DNA of 64,000 nt. It comes from Candidatus Kaiserbacteria bacterium (GTDB lineage Bacteria > Patescibacteriota > Minisyncoccia > Phycocordibacterales > UBA2100). The position numbers and the translations under genes are program-made. Location of the stretch: the NCBI GenBank assembly GCA_016186765.1, contig JACPLD010000002.1, forward strand, positions 110,386 through 174,385, given 5' to 3'. How positions within the stretch are numbered: the stretch's first letter is position 1; each line of letters begins with the position of its first letter. This document shows positions 1,113 to 13,799 of the stretch, piece after piece. A model generated the notes under the pieces. It ran no database searches. It was not told the origin of the DNA and saw only the letters and a program-made list of their open reading frames with translations.

Positions 1113-1910
1113 ATGAAACTTATTTCTTGGAATGTCAATGGCATCCGAAGCATCCACAAGAAAGGTGCGCTCGTGCCGTTTCTCGAGAAAATGAAACCTG
1201 ATATCGCGTGCTTTCAGGAGACAAAGGCAGAGGAGCACCAATCGGAGGTTGATTTGCCCGACTACGAGGAATATTGGAATTCCTCAAAGGGGCGCAGGGG
1301 CTATGCAGGAACCGCGATATTCACAAAAAATAAGCCTTTGAGCCTTATTTTTGGTTTTCCAGAGGAGATTCTCGGGAAATATGAGCTTAAAGATGGCTAT
1401 GGCGACCCCAATGAGGAGGGACGTCTCATTACCGCAGAATTCGAAGATTTCTTTATCGCGAATGCTTACACGCCGAATGCTAAGCCTGATCTTTCCCGCC
1501 TCACACTGCGTCATACGCACTGGGATCCAGCATTTCTGGCTTTTCTTACGCATCTTGAGAAGAGAAAACCCGTTGTTTTTTGCGGAGATCTCAATGTCGC
1601 GCATACGCCGGAAGACCTTGCGAATCCAAAGGCGAACGAGGGAGAGCATGGGTTCACGAGAGAGGAGCGCGAAGGCATGGATCGCATTGTTGCCGCAGGG
1701 TTCGTCGATACGTTCCGTCTTTTTGCAGAGGGTAACGGACACTACACCTGGTGGAGTCATTTCTCGAATGCTCGCGCCCGAAACGTTGGCTGGAGAATAG
1801 ATTATTTTTTCGTGAGCAGGGAGCTTGTTTCGAGCGTACGTTCAGCCAAAATCCATCCTGATGTCTTTGGCTCCGATCACTGCCCAGTGTCCCTGGAGGT
1901 CAGTTTTTAA
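1113..1910 (+). CDS. xth: Exodeoxyribonuclease III (AP endonuclease)
   Basis: MKLISWNVNGIRS ... QETK ... SDHCP motifs of the ExoIII/APE1 family. ORF track 1086..1910; internal ATG at 1113 is preferred. Confidence 0.85.
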   Translation: MKLISWNVNGIRSIHKKGALVPFLEKMKPDIACFQETKAEEHQSEVDLPDYEEYWNSSKGRRGYAGTAIFTKNKPLSLIFGFPEEILGKYELKDGYGDPNEEGRLITAEFEDFFIANAYTPNAKPDLSRLTLRHTHWDPAFLAFLTHLEKRKPVVFCGDLNVAHTPEDLANPKANEGEHGFTREEREGMDRIVAAGFVDTFRLFAEGNGHYTWWSHFSNARARNVGWRIDYFFVSRELVSSVRSAKIHPDVFGSDHCPVSLEVSF

Positions 1911-2329
1911 GGCATATCTTATAGGACACCGGGAGGCGACAGGCTATCCACAGGCCGTCCTTTACAGCGTCCTTTAGCAATGTATCGTAATGGACAGGGA
2001 TCAGGACACGCTCCTGTATCCTATAAAGTTTTGCGTAAAAAATGTTCTTTCGTCTTGCGTTCAACCGCGGGGACTTCGTTCTTGCGATCAGAAACAGCAA
2101 GAGGGCTTCATGCCCAGGGGCCTACAGGTACACTCCACAACAAAGGTGACGCATAGCGTCCCAAACATTAGGAAAAAGTACCATCGTTCGACCCCTGAAA
2201 CCAACGCAAAACAGAAAGGCCGTCTCCAGGCTAGGGCACAGATCCCCAAAGAGAGCGATCCGTGTCCTTTAACTGGTGGCGGCCTTTTACTTTCTACGCA
2301 TTTTCCACGGTTAGGTGTGCCTTTTCGGA

Positions 2330-3826
2330 TTATTGAACGTGGTGTTTCTTTCTTAATTCCTGTATTTCTGCTTCTTCTTCGCCCTCTTTTCGTTCCTTGC
2401 CAGCTTCGCCGAGCGATTTGAGTTCCCTTTCGGAAAGCTTTGAGAGTTCTCTCGCACGTAATACGAGATACTCGTTCGTATTCTTCTTCGGGTCGTCCAA
2501 AACTTCTTCGAGTAGCGCATGTAAGATCCAGCCGATGCGGGGACCCGGCGCTTCCCCGAGCTCGATAATGTTTGTACCGTCGATCTCGAGCATCGAGACC
2601 GAAATCGGATCTCGCAGCGCCTCGTCAACCATCGACATGTACTTACGGAGACGGAACGGCTGCTCTTTTGGGCGGCCGGTACCGATACGGTCGCAAATGC
2701 GCAATGAGAGGAGGTCTTTGATGCGGTGTTGTCCGACGTTTCTGATCGTGCGGCGCACTGCAGAAAGTGTCACCTTATCGGGATCGGAGAAGAACATGTG
2801 CCATCGGATGAGCGCAACGATCGTCTCTGCGGTGTCGCTCGACATGCGGAGATCTGAAAGAATTTTTCTTGCCATCTTTGCACCCACGACTTCGTGTCCG
2901 TGGAACGTCCAGTCTGATTTTTCCTCCGACCAGCGTCTCGTCGCAGGCTTGCCGATGTCGTGGAGAAGCGCTGCGAGCCGCACCTGAACGGGCCAGCTTT
3001 TGTCGGCCGCATGCTGCAGCGCGCGAAGCGAATGCTCAAACACGTCGTATGCATGCGCCTGATTTTGCGCGACACCGATTCCCTCCTCGAGTTCCGGGAT
3101 GATGTGTACGAGGAGGCCGAGCTTTTGCGCGACAAAGAGGGCCTGCATAGGCCGAGCACTCTCGAGGATCCGGATAAACTCATCGCGCACGCGCTCGCGC
3201 GATATATGCGCAAGGAGCGGCGCATCGTTCGCTATTGCTCCGGCGGTCTTCGCTTCGATCGTGAAATCGAGCTCGGAGAGGAGCCGCACGGCGCGTAACA
3301 TCCGGAGCGCGTCTTCTTTGAATCGCTCATCGGGGTTGCCAACCGCGGCAATAGAGCGGCGTGCGATGTCTTCCCTTCCGCCGTGCTCATCCACGACTAC
3401 ATCGCGTGCTGGATCGTACGCGAGCGCATTTACCGTAAAATCGCGGCGCTTGAGGTCGTCAGAAAGCGTTTTTGCCCAGCGAATTTCGTCGGGATGGCGC
3501 ACGTTTGAATACTTCCCTTCCTCGCGATATGGCGTGATCTCGACGACCTTGAGACGCGGGTCTTCGGAGCTTGTGACGACGCCGACAGTACCGAATTTAT
3601 TTTCGTAGAACGTGTCCGCGAAAAGCTCTTGGATCTCTTCAGGCGTGGCGTTTGTTGTGATGTCCCAATCCTTCGGCTCGCGCTTGAGAAGGAGATCGCG
3701 AACGCACCCACCCACTAGGTATGCCTCGAAGCCAGCATTTCGCAGCGCTTCGCAAAGCGCTCCAACCGGCCGCGGCACCGGAAGTTTTATTGGCTCCATC
3801 TTTGTCATTGTATCGTGAGTGTGCAT
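2330..3826 (-). CDS. cca: CCA-adding tRNA nucleotidyltransferase with HD domain
   Basis: PolyA-polymerase head domain (LVGGCVRDLLL) plus HD motif (LLHDIGK). An alternative start MTKMEPIK at 3808 is possible. Confidence 0.75.
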   Translation of the reverse strand: MHTHDTMTKMEPIKLPVPRPVGALCEALRNAGFEAYLVGGCVRDLLLKREPKDWDITTNATPEEIQELFADTFYENKFGTVGVVTSSEDPRLKVVEITPYREEGKYSNVRHPDEIRWAKTLSDDLKRRDFTVNALAYDPARDVVVDEHGGREDIARRSIAAVGNPDERFKEDALRMLRAVRLLSELDFTIEAKTAGAIANDAPLLAHISRERVRDEFIRILESARPMQALFVAQKLGLLVHIIPELEEGIGVAQNQAHAYDVFEHSLRALQHAADKSWPVQVRLAALLHDIGKPATRRWSEEKSDWTFHGHEVVGAKMARKILSDLRMSSDTAETIVALIRWHMFFSDPDKVTLSAVRRTIRNVGQHRIKDLLSLRICDRIGTGRPKEQPFRLRKYMSMVDEALRDPISVSMLEIDGTNIIELGEAPGPRIGWILHALLEEVLDDPKKNTNEYLVLRARELSKLSERELKSLGEAGKERKEGEEEAEIQELRKKHHVQ

Positions 3827-4099: not shown

Positions 4100-5107
4100 T
4101 TATTTCTTTGCTCCCGGCGGCAAGTTGATGACGGTTTGCGCACCAGTTGTGCTTTTCGTACCGCGCTCCCAGAACGCGATCGCAAGACCAGCGAGTGCGA
4201 TGATGGTCGCAATGACCGGTACCCAAGGAGAAGTTCTGCAACTTTCAGCGAAGTACCAAAGTCCGAAGAGGAGTAGGAATGGCACCACGATAGCAGCTGC
4301 TGTCCACTCCTGTGTTCGCATGGCGGGAGGCATCTGTGACTGTCCGAAGACTGCGAATGCAACGATGGCGGCGAATAGTAGAAGGAGAATGAACCAGAGC
4401 CGATTCGCGCCCGCGCCGGCACAGATGTCCTTTAGGATATTCTGCGTTGTTGCGAACACTGAACTCGTCGCCGTGGTTGTACCTTTTGCCACGACAGTGC
4501 CGGTCGCGGGTTTGCTTACGGGAGATGGTGCCGGCGCGAGCGGAGGTTTCGGTTTAGGGGCGGTCGTGCTTACCGGAGGCCTGACCGGTGTGGGGGCTGG
4601 AACAGGGCTGGGAGGGGGGGCCGTGAGCGAGAGTTCTCCACTTGGTGTCACGTTCGTAGCTATGGTCGTGATACAGACGGGTTGATCGCTTCCCTTGGCA
4701 GAAAGCATGGTCACAAAGATCGGAAGGCCTCTCCCTATGGGGGTCGAGGGAAGATCGGCGTGGATGCGCACGGCACCTGCCGGCGCCCCCATCCGCGTCA
4801 TTTGATTAAAGGGAATGTTCACACTACCCACCGTAGCCGCGATAGCGACGTATGCGCTATCCCCTACCGTGAGCTCAAATGAATGGAGGGCCCCATTGTA
4901 TATATAAGGCGTGAATCCGGTAACACTCGCCGGCGCACAGGTATTGCTGCCGGGTGGAAGGAGCTGGGCTGTTTGGACGGCGACCTCGGCCGATGCAAAT
5001 GAGGGCACAATAATGATAAAGGAAACAAGGAGCGCGAAGACCGATACCGCAAGTACGTATCGAGTCCGTGTAATGGTACTCATGTCGGTTACGCTAGTAC
5101 GGTGCAC
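4100..5107 (-). CDS. Hypothetical surface/membrane protein with a Pro-rich linker
   Basis: N-terminal signal/anchor, Pro/Ala/Thr-rich low-complexity linker, C-terminal multi-TM segment. No recognisable enzymatic motif. Confidence 0.5.
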   Translation of the reverse strand: MHRTSVTDMSTITRTRYVLAVSVFALLVSFIIIVPSFASAEVAVQTAQLLPPGSNTCAPASVTGFTPYIYNGALHSFELTVGDSAYVAIAATVGSVNIPFNQMTRMGAPAGAVRIHADLPSTPIGRGLPIFVTMLSAKGSDQPVCITTIATNVTPSGELSLTAPPPSPVPAPTPVRPPVSTTAPKPKPPLAPAPSPVSKPATGTVVAKGTTTATSSVFATTQNILKDICAGAGANRLWFILLLLFAAIVAFAVFGQSQMPPAMRTQEWTAAAIVVPFLLLFGLWYFAESCRTSPWVPVIATIIALAGLAIAFWERGTKSTTGAQTVINLPPGAKK

Positions 5108-5140
5108 TTATTTCCGTCAAGCAAAAATCGTGTTGCAGTA

Positions 5141-5169
5141 TTGACATGTCCTTCAAGTTGTTTCATAAA
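5141..5169 (+). promoter_or_regulatory. Sigma70-like promoter candidate (TTGACA-N17-CATAAA) inside an 8-bp inverted repeat ATGTCCTT/AAGGACAT
   Basis: Read directly from sequence. Sits at the head of the 456-bp GC-rich structured intergenic region upstream of yraN. Confidence 0.35.
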
Positions 5170-5563
5170 GGACATTCAAACGGACTAATTCTTCGAAAAG
5201 CGGAGTTCGATAGGAGGAAAAAACCTAAGATTTACGGTCTCTTTTTAGCAGATGTGGAAAAGTCTGTGGATATGGGGATAAAGGACATAGGGCAGTCCTG
5301 TCCGTTTACTGGCGACGTAGGGCGAGGGAGATGGGAAAACCGCAGTTTTCGCATCTCCGAGCCGAGGAGCCAGAAACCGGTGCAAACGCCCTGCGCTTGT
5401 GCGCAGGGGCGTCCTTCGAGACCGTGGGTTCAACGCCCTGCGGTCTCGAAAGGGCCGGTTTACGGATGCATAGCCTCAAAGCCCTGGACGCGAACCTATG
5501 CCAAACTGTGCCTTAGTTACATATCTAGCTAAGTAACATGTTTGTGAGCTATTTTCACGTGAA

Positions 5564-5998
5564 ATGTCCAGCTTGCGGCTCGTGTATAATGCCTTTTTTA
5601 TGTTGCCTGATGATATTCGAAAGGGTGTCGGAAGGGGAGGAGAGGATATTGCGTGCCAATTCCTAATCCGTAAGGGATACTGGATTATTGGCAGAAACTA
5701 TCGAAAGAAGTGGGGAGAGATAGATATCGTTGCCGAAAAAGACGAGACCGTGCGCTTTATCGAGGTCAAGGCTGTCTCGGTCCGCGGGGGAGACTTTTCA
5801 CGTGAAATGCAGCGACTACCTGAAGAGCTTGTCCATAGGAGGAAACTAAGAAAGATAGCACGCACCGCAGCCCTCTATATGGAGGAGAAAAAGGATGCAA
5901 GGGAATACCAGATCGACGTAGTCGGCATAGTCATGAATCAGACAAGCCGAGTCGCGAGGTGTCGCCTCTTTGAGCAGGCTCTTGGTGAGGACTTGTAA
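5564..5998 (+). CDS. yraN: YraN/UPF0102 family endonuclease
   Basis: IACQFLIRKGYWIIGRNYRKKWGEIDIVAEKDETVRFIEVK matches the UPF0102 restriction-endonuclease-like fold family. Confidence 0.75.
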   Translation: MSSLRLVYNAFFMLPDDIRKGVGRGGEDIACQFLIRKGYWIIGRNYRKKWGEIDIVAEKDETVRFIEVKAVSVRGGDFSREMQRLPEELVHRRKLRKIARTAALYMEEKKDAREYQIDVVGIVMNQTSRVARCRLFEQALGEDL

Positions 5999-6069
5999 AC
6001 TTGGACATAAAGGACACACTGGCCCATTGATGTCTTTTATGTTTTATGTCCTATCTTTACCTTCACTTT

Positions 6070-6140
6070 TCGGGCTGCTGGGAATCGAACCCAGTCAACA
6101 TCCTCCCAAAGGATGCGTACTACCGGTATACGACAGCCCG
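6070..6140 (-). tRNA. tRNA-Pro (anticodon TGG)
   Basis: Reverse complement CGGGCTGTCGTATACCGGTAGTACGCATCCTTTGGGAGGATG...CTGGGTTCGATTCCCAGCAGCCCGA: anticodon loop TTTGGGA. Confidence 0.8.
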
Positions 6141-13687: not shown

Positions 13688-13799
13688 ATGGGTTGTGTTG
13701 TCCTTTCAAAAAAACGTCCGCCAAGAGGCGGTACTAATGCGGGCAGTATAGTCGACAGCTATCAGAAGTCAACAGCTCTCGTGTTATATAATTGTAGGG

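What the first reader, a model, noticed from the sequence alone, without database searches (positions are those of the whole stretch)
5108..5563. 456-bp GC-rich, ORF-poor intergenic region with three consecutive strong hairpins and its own promoter: candidate structured ncRNA or long riboregulatory leader
The region between the surface-protein gene (ending 5107) and yraN (5564) has a TTGACA-N17-CATAAA promoter at 5141..5169 sitting within an 8-bp inverted repeat ATGTCCTT/AAGGACAT. Downstream are three hairpins:
- 5327..5358: GGAGATGG-GAAAAC-CGCA-GTTTTC-GCATCTCC.
- 5386..5412: ACGCCCTGCGC-TTGT-GCGCAGGGGCGT.
- 5416..5449: TCGAGACCG-N16-CGGTCTCGA.
All three frames are open but give low-complexity, non-protein-like translations, the usual sign of a structured RNA. 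Short matches to RNase P conserved regions (AUAGGGCAG; CAGAAACCGG) are present but in the wrong order and spacing, so the class is unclear. It could be a novel sRNA, or a cis-regulatory leader for yraN.
Basis: seen in the sequence. Interest (0 to 1): 0.55.

Follow-up and report, generated by a model that had tools for sequence, protein, structure and literature searches.

The report
Small mobile structured element upstream of yraN
The three hairpins are real, but they are one copy of a small, highly structured, non-coding mobile DNA element that is scattered through the genomes of tiny groundwater bacteria (Parcubacteria), and they do not form an RNA dedicated to controlling the neighbouring yraN gene.

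Summary
The hairpin block folds far better than chance (z = -8.2).

The region is not GC-rich overall (48.9% against 55.4% for the window). Only one frame is open. No Rfam family matches, RNase P included.

The window comes from a Kaiserbacteria-like (CPR) genome. In about 42 related species, the DNA upstream of yraN keeps short DNA motifs: a promoter, three tandem DnaA boxes and two palindromes. It lacks the hairpin block.

The block (5310-5463, after a TTAC at 5306-5309) belongs to a family with about 80 distinct members in groundwater metagenomes. The family shows strong covariation: 94.5% of cells paired, and 27 of 29 pairs with compensatory changes.

- Core: 5' ...TTAC|UGGCGACGUAGAGCGAG-[hairpin]-CGAGCCGAGGAGCCAGAAA-[hairpin]-UUUAC.
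Hairpins 2 and 3 are an optional insert.

Members sit next to unrelated housekeeping genes, and some contigs carry two. Two filled-versus-empty site comparisons and one tandem copy show insertion 3' of (T/C)TAC. The element itself ends in TTAC or TTAT and has no inverted ends.

Best reading: a non-autonomous element moved in the style of IS200/IS605 elements. How it moves, and whether it acts as an RNA, remains open.

The parts
5141..5169 (+). Sigma-70-like promoter TTGACA-N17-CATAAA, part of the ancestral yraN-upstream region and not part of the mobile element
   Evidence: The sequence shows it directly. The block AATGTGTTGCAGTATTGACA-N17-TnTAAAGGACA is conserved in L004, L005, L008, L014, L015 and L021. 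The consensus scan did not call it.
5146..5175 (.). Inverted repeat ATGTCCTT / AAGGACAT overlapping the promoter spacer and second hexamer
   Evidence: pair I11. The left arm is present only in the window and L004.
5253..5281 (+). Three tandem DnaA-box-like 9-mers (TGTGGAAAA, TGTGGATAT, TGGGGATAA), each one mismatch from TGTGGATAA
   Evidence: This is the only such cluster in the 64-kb window. The block TGTGGAAAACTCTGTGGATATGTGGATAAAGGACA lies 80-350 nt upstream of yraN in about 42 related species.
5277..5307 (+). GATAAAGGACAT followed by its inverted partner TGTCCGTTT. This is a copy of the TAAAGGACA / TGTCCTTTA motif that recurs in intergenic DNA of this clade.
   Evidence: AAAGGAC occurs 321 times in 513 kb of the window plus related loci, about 5 times the ~63 that I calculate for a uniform base composition. 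The partner TGTCC(G/T)TTT follows 10-20 nt later in relatives.
5306..5309 (+). TTAC target tetranucleotide on the left flank of the inserted element
   Evidence: Across 67 members the left flank is T-rich and ends in TAC: T at 94%, 85% and 60% of the three positions before AC. Empty sites carry a single TTAC or CTAY.
5310..5463 (+). One 154-nt copy (long form) of the dispersed, structured, non-coding mobile element. It is the only copy in the window.
   Evidence: Family model R1 scores 64 bits and R2 scores 75 bits. No other hit in the window scores above 16 bits with filters off. z = -8.2. Family covariation is shown.
5309..5373 (+). Closing helix P1 (CUGGC 5309-5313 with GCCAG 5369-5373). 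It encloses conserved purine-rich internal loops (GA/GA, CGUA/GAG, GA/GA) and hairpin H1.
   Evidence: P1 changes on both sides in diverged copies: CGGGC/GCCCG in L090, CUGUC/GACAG in L039 and CUGCC/GGCAG in L104.
5327..5358 (+). Its sequence varies between members and its pairing is conserved.
   Evidence: All 16 pairs of this helix show changes on both sides, and 96.9% of cells are paired.
5374..5461 (+). Helix H2 (AAACCGG 5374-5380 with CCGGUUU 5455-5461). In short-form members it closes a small loop. Here it encloses the optional insert.
   Evidence: All 7 pairs covary.
5386..5449 (+). It carries the direct repeat AACGCCCTGCG at 5385-5395 and 5432-5442.
   Evidence: The insert is present in 18 of 68 distinct members. 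The outer stem of hairpin 3 covaries. Members of about 110 nt look like deletions between the two direct repeats.
5460..5463 (+). Terminal TTAC of the element
   Evidence: Nearly all members end in TTTAC. In 16 loci this end supplies the TAA stop codon of a convergent gene.
5516..5537 (.). Palindrome GTTAC-N12-GTAAC, an expanded form of the GTTWC-TTAA-GWAAC palindrome conserved upstream of yraN
   Evidence: The strict, short-spacer form is found in 18 of 42 relatives.
5553..5564 (.). Palindrome TTTCACGTGAAA abutting the annotated yraN start. A second copy lies inside yraN at 5796-5807.
   Evidence: family D2, pair I1. The 8-mer core (TTCACGTG / CACGTGAA) lies upstream of yraN in 33 of 42 relatives and inside yraN in 39 of 42. 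That is 197 hits against about 15 expected.

Best explanation
The 456-bp gap is a composite.

**Outer parts.** Positions 5108-5305 and 5464-5563 are the ancestral control region of yraN. They hold a promoter, three tandem DnaA boxes that overlap a promoter-like GATAAAGGACA motif, and two palindromes.

**Central part.** Positions 5310-5463 are a 154-nt copy of a non-coding, non-autonomous mobile element that inserted 3' of a TTAC.

- The element belongs to a family spread through Parcubacteria (CPR) genomes. By my rough estimate, there is about one copy per 50-65 kb.
- One strand, the purine-rich strand that is the plus strand here, folds into a near-continuous rod. The rod consists of a closing helix, conserved G·A-rich internal loops, a long hairpin of variable sequence and a second helix. 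The second helix may carry an optional two-hairpin insert.
- The element has no inverted ends, inserts after (T/C)TAC and itself ends in TTAC or TTAT. A gene whose stop codon lay in the target therefore keeps a stop codon.

**Shown.** Family membership, the structure with covariation, the dispersed and diverged copies, and the insertion polymorphism with its target.

**Inferred.** The element is moved in trans as single-stranded DNA by an IS200/IS605-type (Y1/HUH) transposase, like a palindrome-associated transposable element (PATE). Its internal GAAA may pair with either the flanking or the terminal TTTAC to mark the cleavage sites. In this organism it is probably co-transcribed in the yraN leader.

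I put about 0.85 on the 'mobile structured repeat' reading and about 0.45 on the IS200/IS605-type mechanism.
For: **Absent from the same site in relatives**
- Only window 5253-5288 is conserved across about 55 loci, and in the closest relatives the left part of the gap as well.
- The block-to-yraN distance is 77-353 nt in relatives and 275 nt in the window.

**Family**
- The first homologue appeared in L017, downstream of yraN.
- The metagenome scan found 105 stretches, giving 68 distinct curated members.
- The model search gave 109 hits, 81 of them distinct.
- A further 8-12 diverged hits lie in 449 kb of yraN loci.

**Structure**
- 94.5% of cells are paired, against 28-47% when partners are slid.
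- 27 of 29 pairs change on both sides, and 0 of 500 shuffles reach the observed values.
- G·U plus U·G pairs number 39 and A·C plus C·A pairs number 14, which picks the plus strand as the folding strand.

**Dispersal**
- Two diverged copies occur per contig in L117, L090, L183, L135/L182, L113 and L104/L140, and L132 carries a tandem pair.
- The neighbouring genes are functionally unrelated.

**Mobility**
- The empty site in L158 reads ...ATC TTAC CCTTTT.... The filled site in L183 reads ...ATC TTAC[102 nt ...GGTTTAC]CTCTTTT....
- L039 is filled between tRNA-Gly and the HU gene. Eleven relatives match across that junction, and the three aligned, plus the window, show the empty CTAY site.
- The tandem in L132 corresponds to a single copy in L089 and L154.

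**Target and ends**
- The left flank ends in TAC and is T-rich.
- The element's end supplies a TAA stop codon to 16 convergent genes.
- The two ends are not inverted repeats of each other.

**Literature**
- IS608 inserts 3' of TTAC without duplication. PATEs are minimal IS200/IS605 derivatives without protein-coding genes (PMC5027513, PMC10055086).

**Strand bias**
- The element's top strand lies on the G-rich strand in 34 of 53 loci, p about 0.04-0.05. [quoted passage not shown]
Against: **Against the IS200/IS605-type mechanism**
- No Y1 transposase motif was found in about 1.2 Mb of window plus loci, and no transposase appears among 20 window proteins.
- The hairpins near the two ends (H1 and H2) are unlike each other, whereas IS608-type ends carry similar hairpins.
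- The data cannot separate 'no duplication, element ends in TTAC' from a 4-bp TTAC target duplication.

**Pointing to a function beyond transposition**
- Copies within one genome are diverged rather than near-identical.
- The unpaired purine-rich loops are almost invariant across many species. Both suggest long-term selection on a function, for example as an RNA.

**Weak or missing evidence**
- The strand bias is weak.
- The family was collected with an exact 21-base pattern, so the invariance of those positions is partly built in.
- No expression data exist.
Confidence: 0.8

Rival explanations
1. It is a family of small trans-acting RNA genes (an RNA-protein particle RNA, or a guide scaffold such as the omega-RNAs that some PATEs carry for TnpB/IscB nucleases). 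Its genes happen to be mobile or often relocated, and the conserved purine-rich loops are protein-binding sites.
For: - Covariation is deep, and the G·A-rich internal loops are invariant across many species.
- G·U pairs are tolerated on one strand only.
- Paralogues within a genome are diverged.
- One copy (L104, 6833-6918) has the internal-loop motif swapped between strands while keeping the fold.
- Terminator-like hairpins follow several members.
- PATEs 'often encode omega-RNAs' acted on in trans (PMC10055086).
Against: - No conserved promoter lies at a fixed distance upstream.
- Some members begin 11-23 nt from a divergent gene's putative start.
- In the commonest arrangement the folding strand is antisense to both neighbouring genes.
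- No tnpB-like or iscB-like gene, and no other recurrent partner protein, lies nearby.
- No Rfam match.
- No expression data.
- The same structure is equally stable as single-stranded DNA.
Confidence: 0.25
2. It is a cis-regulatory leader (riboswitch, attenuator or protein-binding leader) that controls yraN.
For: - It lies between a promoter-like block and yraN on the same strand.
- It is very stably folded.
- Several members elsewhere end 6-26 nt before a co-oriented gene.
Against: - It is absent upstream of yraN in all ~42 related species examined, and it lies downstream of yraN in L017.
- The adjacent genes are unrelated in function, and about half are convergent.
- Insertion polymorphism exists between near-identical flanks.
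Confidence: 0.05
3. It is a highly diverged copy of a known universal RNA (RNase P RNA, 5S rRNA, SRP RNA, tmRNA or a ZTP-type riboswitch).
For: Short resemblances recalled from memory:
- CCAGAAACCGG...CCGGUUUAC against the RNase P CR-V sequence ACAGAAnCCGGCUUA.
- ACUGGCGACGUAGAGCG / GCCAG against 5S helix I (CCUGGCGGCCGUAGCGCGG / GCCAGG).
- ACUGGCG is also found in ZTP riboswitches.
Against: - No Rfam hit at gathering threshold, or at E <= 10, for the window copy or for nine other members.
- ARAGORN finds no tmRNA.
- Its size (80-165 nt), multiple copies and mobility do not fit.
Confidence: 0.02
4. The gap is the chromosomal replication origin (oriC). The DnaA-box trio would be its core and the hairpins an accessory or unwinding structure.
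For: - Three tandem DnaA-box-like sites are conserved across a class-level clade.
- The left part of the gap is AT-rich at 40% GC.
- Cumulative GC skew in the window is lowest near 2-4 kb and rises to the right.
- Third-codon-position skew is stronger to the right of the block than to the left.
Against: - The cluster holds only 2-3 boxes within 29 bp, with no further boxes within ±400 bp in most loci.
- The third box overlaps a promoter-like motif directly upstream of a gene, which fits a DnaA-regulated promoter better.
- No dnaA gene lies in the 64-kb window.
- In the complete genome CP066682 the locus is at 147 kb. This is uninformative unless the record starts at the origin.
- The left flank is too short for a skew test.
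- The hairpins are a lineage-specific insertion and cannot be part of a conserved origin.
Confidence: 0.08

Closest known systems
IS200/IS605-family non-autonomous derivatives (palindrome-associated transposable elements, PATEs); IS608 as the reference for the mechanism
   Same: - No protein-coding capacity and no terminal inverted repeats.
- Hairpins close to the ends.
- Insertion immediately 3' of a specific tetranucleotide. For IS608 that is also TTAC (PMC5027513).
- The element's own end carries a cleavage-site-like motif.
- One strand is the structured one.
- A weak bias towards the strand expected for lagging-strand-template insertion.
   Different: - The two end hairpins are unlike each other.
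- The whole element folds into one rod, with a covarying helix joining its 5' end to a site just before the 3' hairpin.
- The left-flank motif and the right-end motif are the same (TTAC), whereas IS608 has TTAC and TCAA.
- The purine-rich internal loops are invariant.
- No cognate Y1 transposase was seen in the DNA available.
- Copies within a genome are old and diverged.
REP / REPIN elements mobilised by RAYT (Y1/HUH) transposases
   Same: - Short extragenic repeats forming imperfect hairpins.
- Often sit at gene ends.
- An invariant GTAG lies a few bases 5' of the main hairpin (GUAG at 5317-5320). This resembles the GTAG tetranucleotide of REPs as I recall it from the literature.
   Different: - Copy density is far lower, about 1 per 50 kb rather than hundreds per genome.
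- The element is about 80-165 nt with two different helices and a defined TTAC insertion site.
- No RAYT gene was seen.
- No paired inverted REP arrangement.
Bacterial MITEs and other structured intergenic repeats (Correia elements, RUP, BOX, Rickettsia palindromic elements)
   Same: - Small non-coding dispersed insertions with a stable predicted fold.
- Can be co-transcribed with neighbouring genes, and may overlap their ends.
   Different: - MITEs have terminal inverted repeats and duplicate their target through a DDE transposase. This element has no inverted ends.
- Its conservation pattern, with invariant loops and covarying stems, is more RNA-like than is usual for MITEs.
Omega-RNAs (reRNAs) of TnpB/IscB encoded at the right end of IS200/IS605 elements
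   Same: - A structured scaffold of about 100-200 nt that ends exactly at the transposon's right boundary.
- The motif next to the left end (here TTAC) would serve as the nuclease's target-adjacent motif.
- PATEs carrying only such RNAs are reported (PMC10055086).
   Different: - No tnpB or iscB gene is adjacent or recurrent in about 0.7 Mb of member loci.
- No match to any Rfam family.
- Transcription across the right end has not been shown.

Membership tests
IS200/IS605-type non-autonomous element (PATE) | No terminal inverted repeats | tested here: met
   The left end TGGCGACGTAG... and the right end ...CCGGTTTAC are not reverse complements of each other in any member.
IS200/IS605-type non-autonomous element (PATE) | Insertion 3' of a specific 4-5-nt target, without target duplication | tested here: inconclusive
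   Empty sites hold one TTAC or CTAY. Filled sites hold TTAC/CTAC, then the element, which ends in TTAC or TTAT. The left flank ends in TAC in 94% of members. A 4-bp TTAC duplication would look the same.
IS200/IS605-type non-autonomous element (PATE) | Similar imperfect hairpins near both ends, bound by the same transposase | tested here: not met
   H1 (about 12 bp, 17 nt from the left end) and H2 (4-10 bp, abutting the right end) differ in length and sequence. The two more similar hairpins of the optional insert are absent from most members.
IS200/IS605-type non-autonomous element (PATE) | A cognate Y1 (HUH) transposase in the same genome | tested here: inconclusive
   A motif scan for the Y1 signature found nothing in about 1.2 Mb of window plus loci. 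Complete host genomes could not be scanned.
IS200/IS605-type non-autonomous element (PATE) | [quoted passage not shown] | tested here: inconclusive
   The top strand is on the G-rich strand in 34 of 53 loci (Wilcoxon p = 0.036, binomial p = 0.053). The flanks are short.
MITE (DDE-transposase derived) | Terminal inverted repeats flanked by a target-site duplication | tested here: not met
   No inverted termini. A TTAC duplication cannot be excluded.
REP/REPIN-RAYT | High-copy extragenic palindromes with a 5' GTAG, and a RAYT gene flanked by REPs | tested here: inconclusive
   An invariant GUAG lies 5' of H1. Density is only about 1 per 50-65 kb. No RAYT-like motif was found.
Known RNA families (Rfam 15: RNase P, 5S, SRP, tmRNA, 6S, riboswitches, ribozymes) | Covariance-model score at or above the family's gathering threshold | tested here: not met
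   The window yields only four tRNAs. Positions 5000-5700 at E <= 10 give only weak chance hits of 15-17 bits. Nine other members give nothing at the element. ARAGORN finds no tmRNA.
cis-regulatory leader of yraN | Conserved association with the regulated gene across species | tested here: not met
   Absent upstream of yraN in ~42 related species. Present next to unrelated genes elsewhere.
TnpB/IscB omega-RNA | Encoded at the right end of an element that carries, or can borrow, a tnpB or iscB gene, and transcribed across the right boundary into the flank | not testable with these tools
   No recurrent neighbouring nuclease gene. Whole genomes and transcript data are unavailable.
oriC (applies to the DnaA-box block 5253-5281 only) | A cluster of DnaA boxes with an unwinding element, at the GC-skew switch | tested here: inconclusive
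   Three boxes lie within 29 bp and are conserved. No wider cluster exists. Skew evidence is weak because only 5 kb lies to the left. No dnaA gene is in the window.

The most novel reading that the evidence does not exclude
The element is more than a passive transposon remnant. On this reading it is a mobile gene for a functional RNA in CPR bacteria. Either it is an omega-RNA-like guide scaffold that uses TTAC as the target-adjacent motif and the right-flank DNA as its guide, helping it home back to emptied sites. Or it is a small RNA-protein particle RNA whose invariant G·A and bulged-G loops bind a CPR protein. In both cases the whole ~85-nt body would be the functional unit and would fold into a rod, closed head to tail once excised.
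Probability: 0.2. Interest if true: 0.75.

Novelty: new variant of a known kind. Interest (0 to 1): 0.45.

Why it matters
CPR/Patescibacteria genomes are tiny and compact, and little is known about their mobile DNA or non-coding RNAs.

- **A new family.** This is a widespread, strongly structured element absent from Rfam 15. A literature search by sequence also found nothing.
- **A way to insert into compact genomes.** It inserts at TTAC/CTAC, the reverse complement of a G plus a TAA or TAG stop codon. Because it rebuilds the stop codon with its own end, it can land in genomes that have almost no spacer DNA without damaging genes.
- **A practical warning.** It explains a class of 'GC-rich structured intergenic regions' that genome scans and ncRNA finders will keep flagging in these organisms.
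- **A useful tool.** The covariance model lets such regions be recognised and masked.
- **If it also works as an RNA.** A guide scaffold or a protein-bound RNA would be a new small mobile RNA gene, and a possible lead to RNA-guided systems in CPR bacteria.

Tried and rejected
- **RNase P and other known RNAs.** Rfam at gathering threshold and at E <= 10, plus ARAGORN, found nothing.
- **tRNA-like or two-piece tmRNA reading of GGGUUCAACGCCC.** Rejected: the stem is only 3-4 bp, ARAGORN finds nothing, and the sequence sits in the optional insert.
- **Protein-coding.** The 128-codon ORF at 5146-5532 has no Pfam hit. ORFs that 'recur' at members are translations of the element itself, giving YWRRRASE.
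- **Hammerhead-like core (CUGGCGA...GAAA).** Rejected: two essential adenines are replaced, and CUGGC pairs with GCCAG with covariation.
- **5S-rRNA-derived or ZTP-like.** These are resemblances from memory only, with no model hit.
- **Integron attC site.** The end motifs do not fit, and the neighbours are housekeeping genes.
- **Housekeeping single-copy RNA.** First suggested by one exact-pattern match per contig. Rejected once the model found second, diverged copies and insertion polymorphisms.
- **Conserved partner gene.** Clustering 607 neighbouring ORFs found no recurrent partner.
- **Conserved promoter upstream of members.** None found.
- **Viral contigs.** Two pattern matches, neither a real member.
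- **oriC test by third-codon-position skew in 42 loci.** Suggestive on the right flank, uninformative on the left, and confounded by conserved gene order.
- **Y1 transposase motif scan.** Negative.
- **Literature searches.** Nothing was found on CPR replication origins or CPR RNA motifs.
Full report
**1. What is in the sequence**

The gap 5108-5563 lies between a minus-strand membrane-protein gene with no Pfam hit (4100-5107) and a UPF0102/YraN gene.
- TTGACA at 5141-5146, a 17-nt spacer, and CATAAA at 5164-5169.
- The inverted repeat ATGTCCTT/AAGGACAT.
- Three hairpins at 5327-5358, 5386-5412 and 5416-5449.

Folding is far better than in shuffled controls. For 5170-5563, z = -5.66 on the plus strand. 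For 5306-5463, z = -8.2 as RNA and -8.3 as DNA.

Two descriptive claims fail:
- The gap is 48.9% GC against 55.4% for the window. Only 5310-5463 is GC-rich, at 63.6%.
- Only one of the three plus-strand frames is open, and that ORF has no Pfam match.

Rfam finds four tRNAs in the window and nothing in the gap, even at E <= 10. ARAGORN finds no tmRNA. The RNase P idea is therefore not supported.

**2. Where the window comes from, and what relatives have at this site**

YraN homologues place the window in Candidatus Kaiserbacteria / Paceibacteria, part of the CPR. I fetched 80 yraN loci from species-representative genomes.

Only one short block of the gap is widely conserved: window 5253-5288. 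Its family consensus is TGTGGAAAACTCTGTGGATATGTGGATAAAGGACA, and it lies 77-353 nt upstream of yraN in about 42 species.

The block reads as three tandem DnaA boxes (TGTGGATAA is the reverse complement of TTATCCACA) running into a TAAAGGACA motif. It is the only DnaA-box cluster in the window. In relatives it is not part of a wider cluster.

Reading the upstream regions side by side shows further ordered DNA motifs:
- An inverted partner TGTCC(G/T)TTT just after the DnaA block.
- A GTTWC-TTAA-GWAAC palindrome.
- A TTTCACGTGAAA palindrome next to the yraN start (quantified).

None of the relatives has anything like the hairpin block.

**3. The hairpin block is a member of a large family**

A weak BLAST hit led to L017. 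There a homologous sequence sits downstream of yraN, convergent with a tRNA gene.

I scanned the metagenome collection once with two shared strings, ACTGGCGACGTAG-N40-70-GCCAGAAA. It returned 105 stretches, mostly from Rifle and Hainich groundwater. After I removed a few chance matches and duplicates, 68 distinct members remained.

The common plan is:

(T)TTAC | UGGCGACGUAGAGCGAG - hairpin H1 (about 12 bp, sequence free) - CGAGCCGAGGAGCCAGAAA - helix H2 - UUUAC

- Short forms are 80-98 nt long.
- In 18 members, the window among them, H2 encloses two extra hairpins.
Hairpins 2 and 3 are the optional insert.
- A third optional hairpin can sit between CGAGCC and GAGGAGCC (L017, L084, L117).
- Members of about 110 nt look like deletions between the direct repeat AACGCCCTGCG, which lies at window 5385-5395 and 5432-5442.

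**4. Structure**

RNAalifold on 36 short members predicts four features, and 14 pairs show compensatory changes:
- a closing helix P1 (CUGGC/GCCAG);
- two tandem G·A steps;
- a CGUA/GAG loop resembling a bulged-G motif;
- hairpin H1.

I built a covariance model (R1) and searched the loci. It gave 109 hits, 81 of them distinct. On that alignment:
- 94.5% of cells form standard pairs, against 28-47% when partners are slid by 1-3 columns.
- 27 of 29 pairs change on both sides.
- No shuffle reaches the observed values.

The alignment is fitted to the model, so these numbers lean towards the structure. The independent MAFFT/RNAalifold results agree.

P1 looked invariant because my search pattern fixed it. 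Diverged copies show that it covaries too: CGGGC/GCCCG, CUGUC/GACAG and CUGCC/GGCAG.

G·U pairs outnumber A·C pairs 39 to 14. The purine-rich strand, which is the window's plus strand, is therefore the one that folds.

No member matches any Rfam family. A literature search with the conserved strings found nothing relevant.

**5. It is dispersed and mobile**

Neighbouring genes are unrelated: obg, metG, recG, a DNA ligase, a sigma factor, glyA, rnc, ndk, pyrF, dnaK and a secretion ATPase. Clustering 607 neighbouring ORFs found no recurrent partner. No promoter is conserved at a fixed distance upstream. Only a T-rich run ending in TAC is conserved.

Several contigs carry two diverged copies, and L132 carries a tandem pair sharing one TTAC. 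With the broader model R2:
- the window holds exactly one copy;
- 449 kb of yraN loci hold roughly 8-12.

From those numbers I estimate about one copy per 50-65 kb.

In 16 of 31 loci with a convergent gene on the right, that gene's TAA stop codon is the TTA of the element's terminal TTAC.

Direct evidence of insertion:
- **L158 and L183.** Their flanks are about 90% identical. L158 reads ...ATC TTAC CCTTTT.... L183 reads ...ATC TTAC[102 nt ending GGTTTAC]CTCTTTT....
- **L039.** It carries an 88-nt diverged copy between tRNA-Gly and the HU gene. Eleven relatives match across that junction. The three I aligned, and the window, show an empty CTAY that contains HU's TAG stop codon. In L039 the stop codon is supplied by the element's TTAT end.
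- **L132.** Its tandem corresponds to a single copy in L089 and L154.

The ends are not inverted repeats.

**6. How it most likely works**

Four traits match the IS200/IS605 way of moving (single-strand 'peel and paste' by a Y1/HUH transposase) and its gene-less derivatives, the PATEs:
- insertion 3' of a fixed tetranucleotide;
- no inverted ends;
- a structured single strand;
- an element end that repeats the target.

IS608 itself targets TTAC (PMC5027513). PATEs are described in PMC10055086.

A weak strand bias goes the expected way: the top strand is on the G-rich strand in 34 of 53 loci.

One inference from the sequence is that the internal GAAA (5373-5376) can pair with either the left-flank TTTAC or the terminal TTTAC. 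It would then mark both cleavage sites with one guide. That would also explain why the left flank is T-rich.

The target (T/C)TAC is the reverse complement of G plus TAA or TAG. In a genome with almost no spacer DNA, the insertions that survive would therefore be those at stop codons of genes on the other strand.

Points against this mechanism:
- The two end hairpins are unlike each other.
- No Y1 transposase motif was found in about 1.2 Mb or among 20 window proteins.
- A 4-bp duplication cannot be excluded.
- Copies are old and diverged, yet their loops are invariant. That hints at a function beyond transposition, possibly as an RNA. One such function would be an omega-RNA-like scaffold, which some PATEs carry.

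I therefore put about 0.85 on 'mobile structured repeat', about 0.45 on the IS200/IS605-type mechanism, and about 0.2-0.25 on an additional RNA function.

**7. What it means for this locus**

In the window the element sits between the DnaA-box/promoter block and the conserved palindromes just before yraN. If yraN is transcribed from that block, its leader here is about 150 nt longer and much more structured than in relatives. That is a side effect of the insertion. The conserved regulatory design of yraN lies in the flanking DNA motifs.

**8. Verdict**

The interpretation needs changing. This is not a yraN leader, an RNase P relative or a single-copy sRNA. It is a copy of an undescribed, TTAC-targeting, rod-folding miniature mobile element of CPR bacteria.

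It is a new variant of a known kind. Interest is moderate, and would be higher if an RNA function is shown.

Noticed in passing
window 5253-5281; L004-L053 about 80-350 nt upstream of yraN: Three tandem, same-orientation DnaA-box-like 9-mers spaced 12 and 8 nt apart. They are conserved upstream of yraN across about 42 Paceibacteria species. The third box overlaps a promoter-like GATAAAGGACA. This could be a DnaA-controlled promoter, a DnaA titration site or a minimal origin. In E. coli, yraN is the neighbour of diaA (from my own knowledge).
   Followed up: partly
window 5165-5175, 5278-5288, 6003-6051, 2263-2270, 13699-13706; many sites in L004-L083: The motif (TA)TAAAGGACA and its inverted partner TGTCCTTTA occur 321 times in 513 kb, about 5 times the number I calculate for a uniform base composition. 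Most lie in intergenic DNA. Some sit at the second-hexamer position after a TTGACA. Others form A-tract/GGACA...TGTCC/T-tract hairpins after yraN and before tRNA genes. This is a clade-wide promoter, terminator or operator signal of unknown meaning.
   Followed up: partly
window 5553-5564 and 5796-5807; the same two positions in relatives: The palindrome TTTCACGTGAAA lies just upstream of yraN in 33 of 42 loci and again inside yraN in 39 of 42 loci, where it encodes the conserved DFSREM motif. Its 8-mer core gives 197 hits against about 15 expected. The two copies are self-complementary and about 240 nt apart. That suggests an operator pair, or pairing between the leader and the coding region.
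   Followed up: partly
window 5516-5537; relatives 20-120 nt upstream of yraN: A conserved palindrome GTTAC/GTTTC-TTAA-GTAAC/GAAAC shows symmetric (compensatory-looking) changes between species. In the window, L004 and L005 it is expanded to CTTAG...CTAAGTAAC.
   Followed up: no
window 1910-2330: A 420-bp gap lies between convergent genes (an Exo_endo_phos nuclease and the CCA-adding enzyme). It carries a DnaA-box-like CTATCCACA followed by GTCCTTTACAGCGTCCTTTA (1944-1975). There is no Rfam hit and no copy of the mobile element.
   Followed up: no
window 5564-5600: Homologues of YraN align from residue ~13 of the predicted protein. The true start may be the ATG at 5600, which would lengthen the non-coding region by 36 nt.
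   Followed up: no
L104 6833-6918 (also L140 2101-2186): A diverged paralogue of the element has its two conserved internal-loop strands exchanged: GCCGAGGAUAGCGAG...CGAGCGUCGUAGGC. The helices are kept. The loop motif therefore appears to be a self-contained structural module.
   Followed up: no
L132 2879-3048; L183 938-1206; L117 3155-4129; L090 5294-6380: Copies occur in tandem or close together on the same contig. The L132 pair shares one TTAC, as expected if a copy's own TTAC end serves as a new target.
   Followed up: yes
window 5385-5395 and 5432-5442; L088, L094, L138, L139: The 11-nt direct repeat AACGCCCTGCG inside the optional insert seems to drive deletions. These yield members of about 110 nt that have lost both extra hairpins.
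   Followed up: partly
window 6070-6140 compared with L021, L015, L014 and others at about 3490-3600: The tRNA gene that follows yraN is on the opposite strand in the window, L004, L017 and L033. It is on the same strand as yraN in most relatives. This points to a small local inversion next to the TAAAGGACA palindromes.
   Followed up: no
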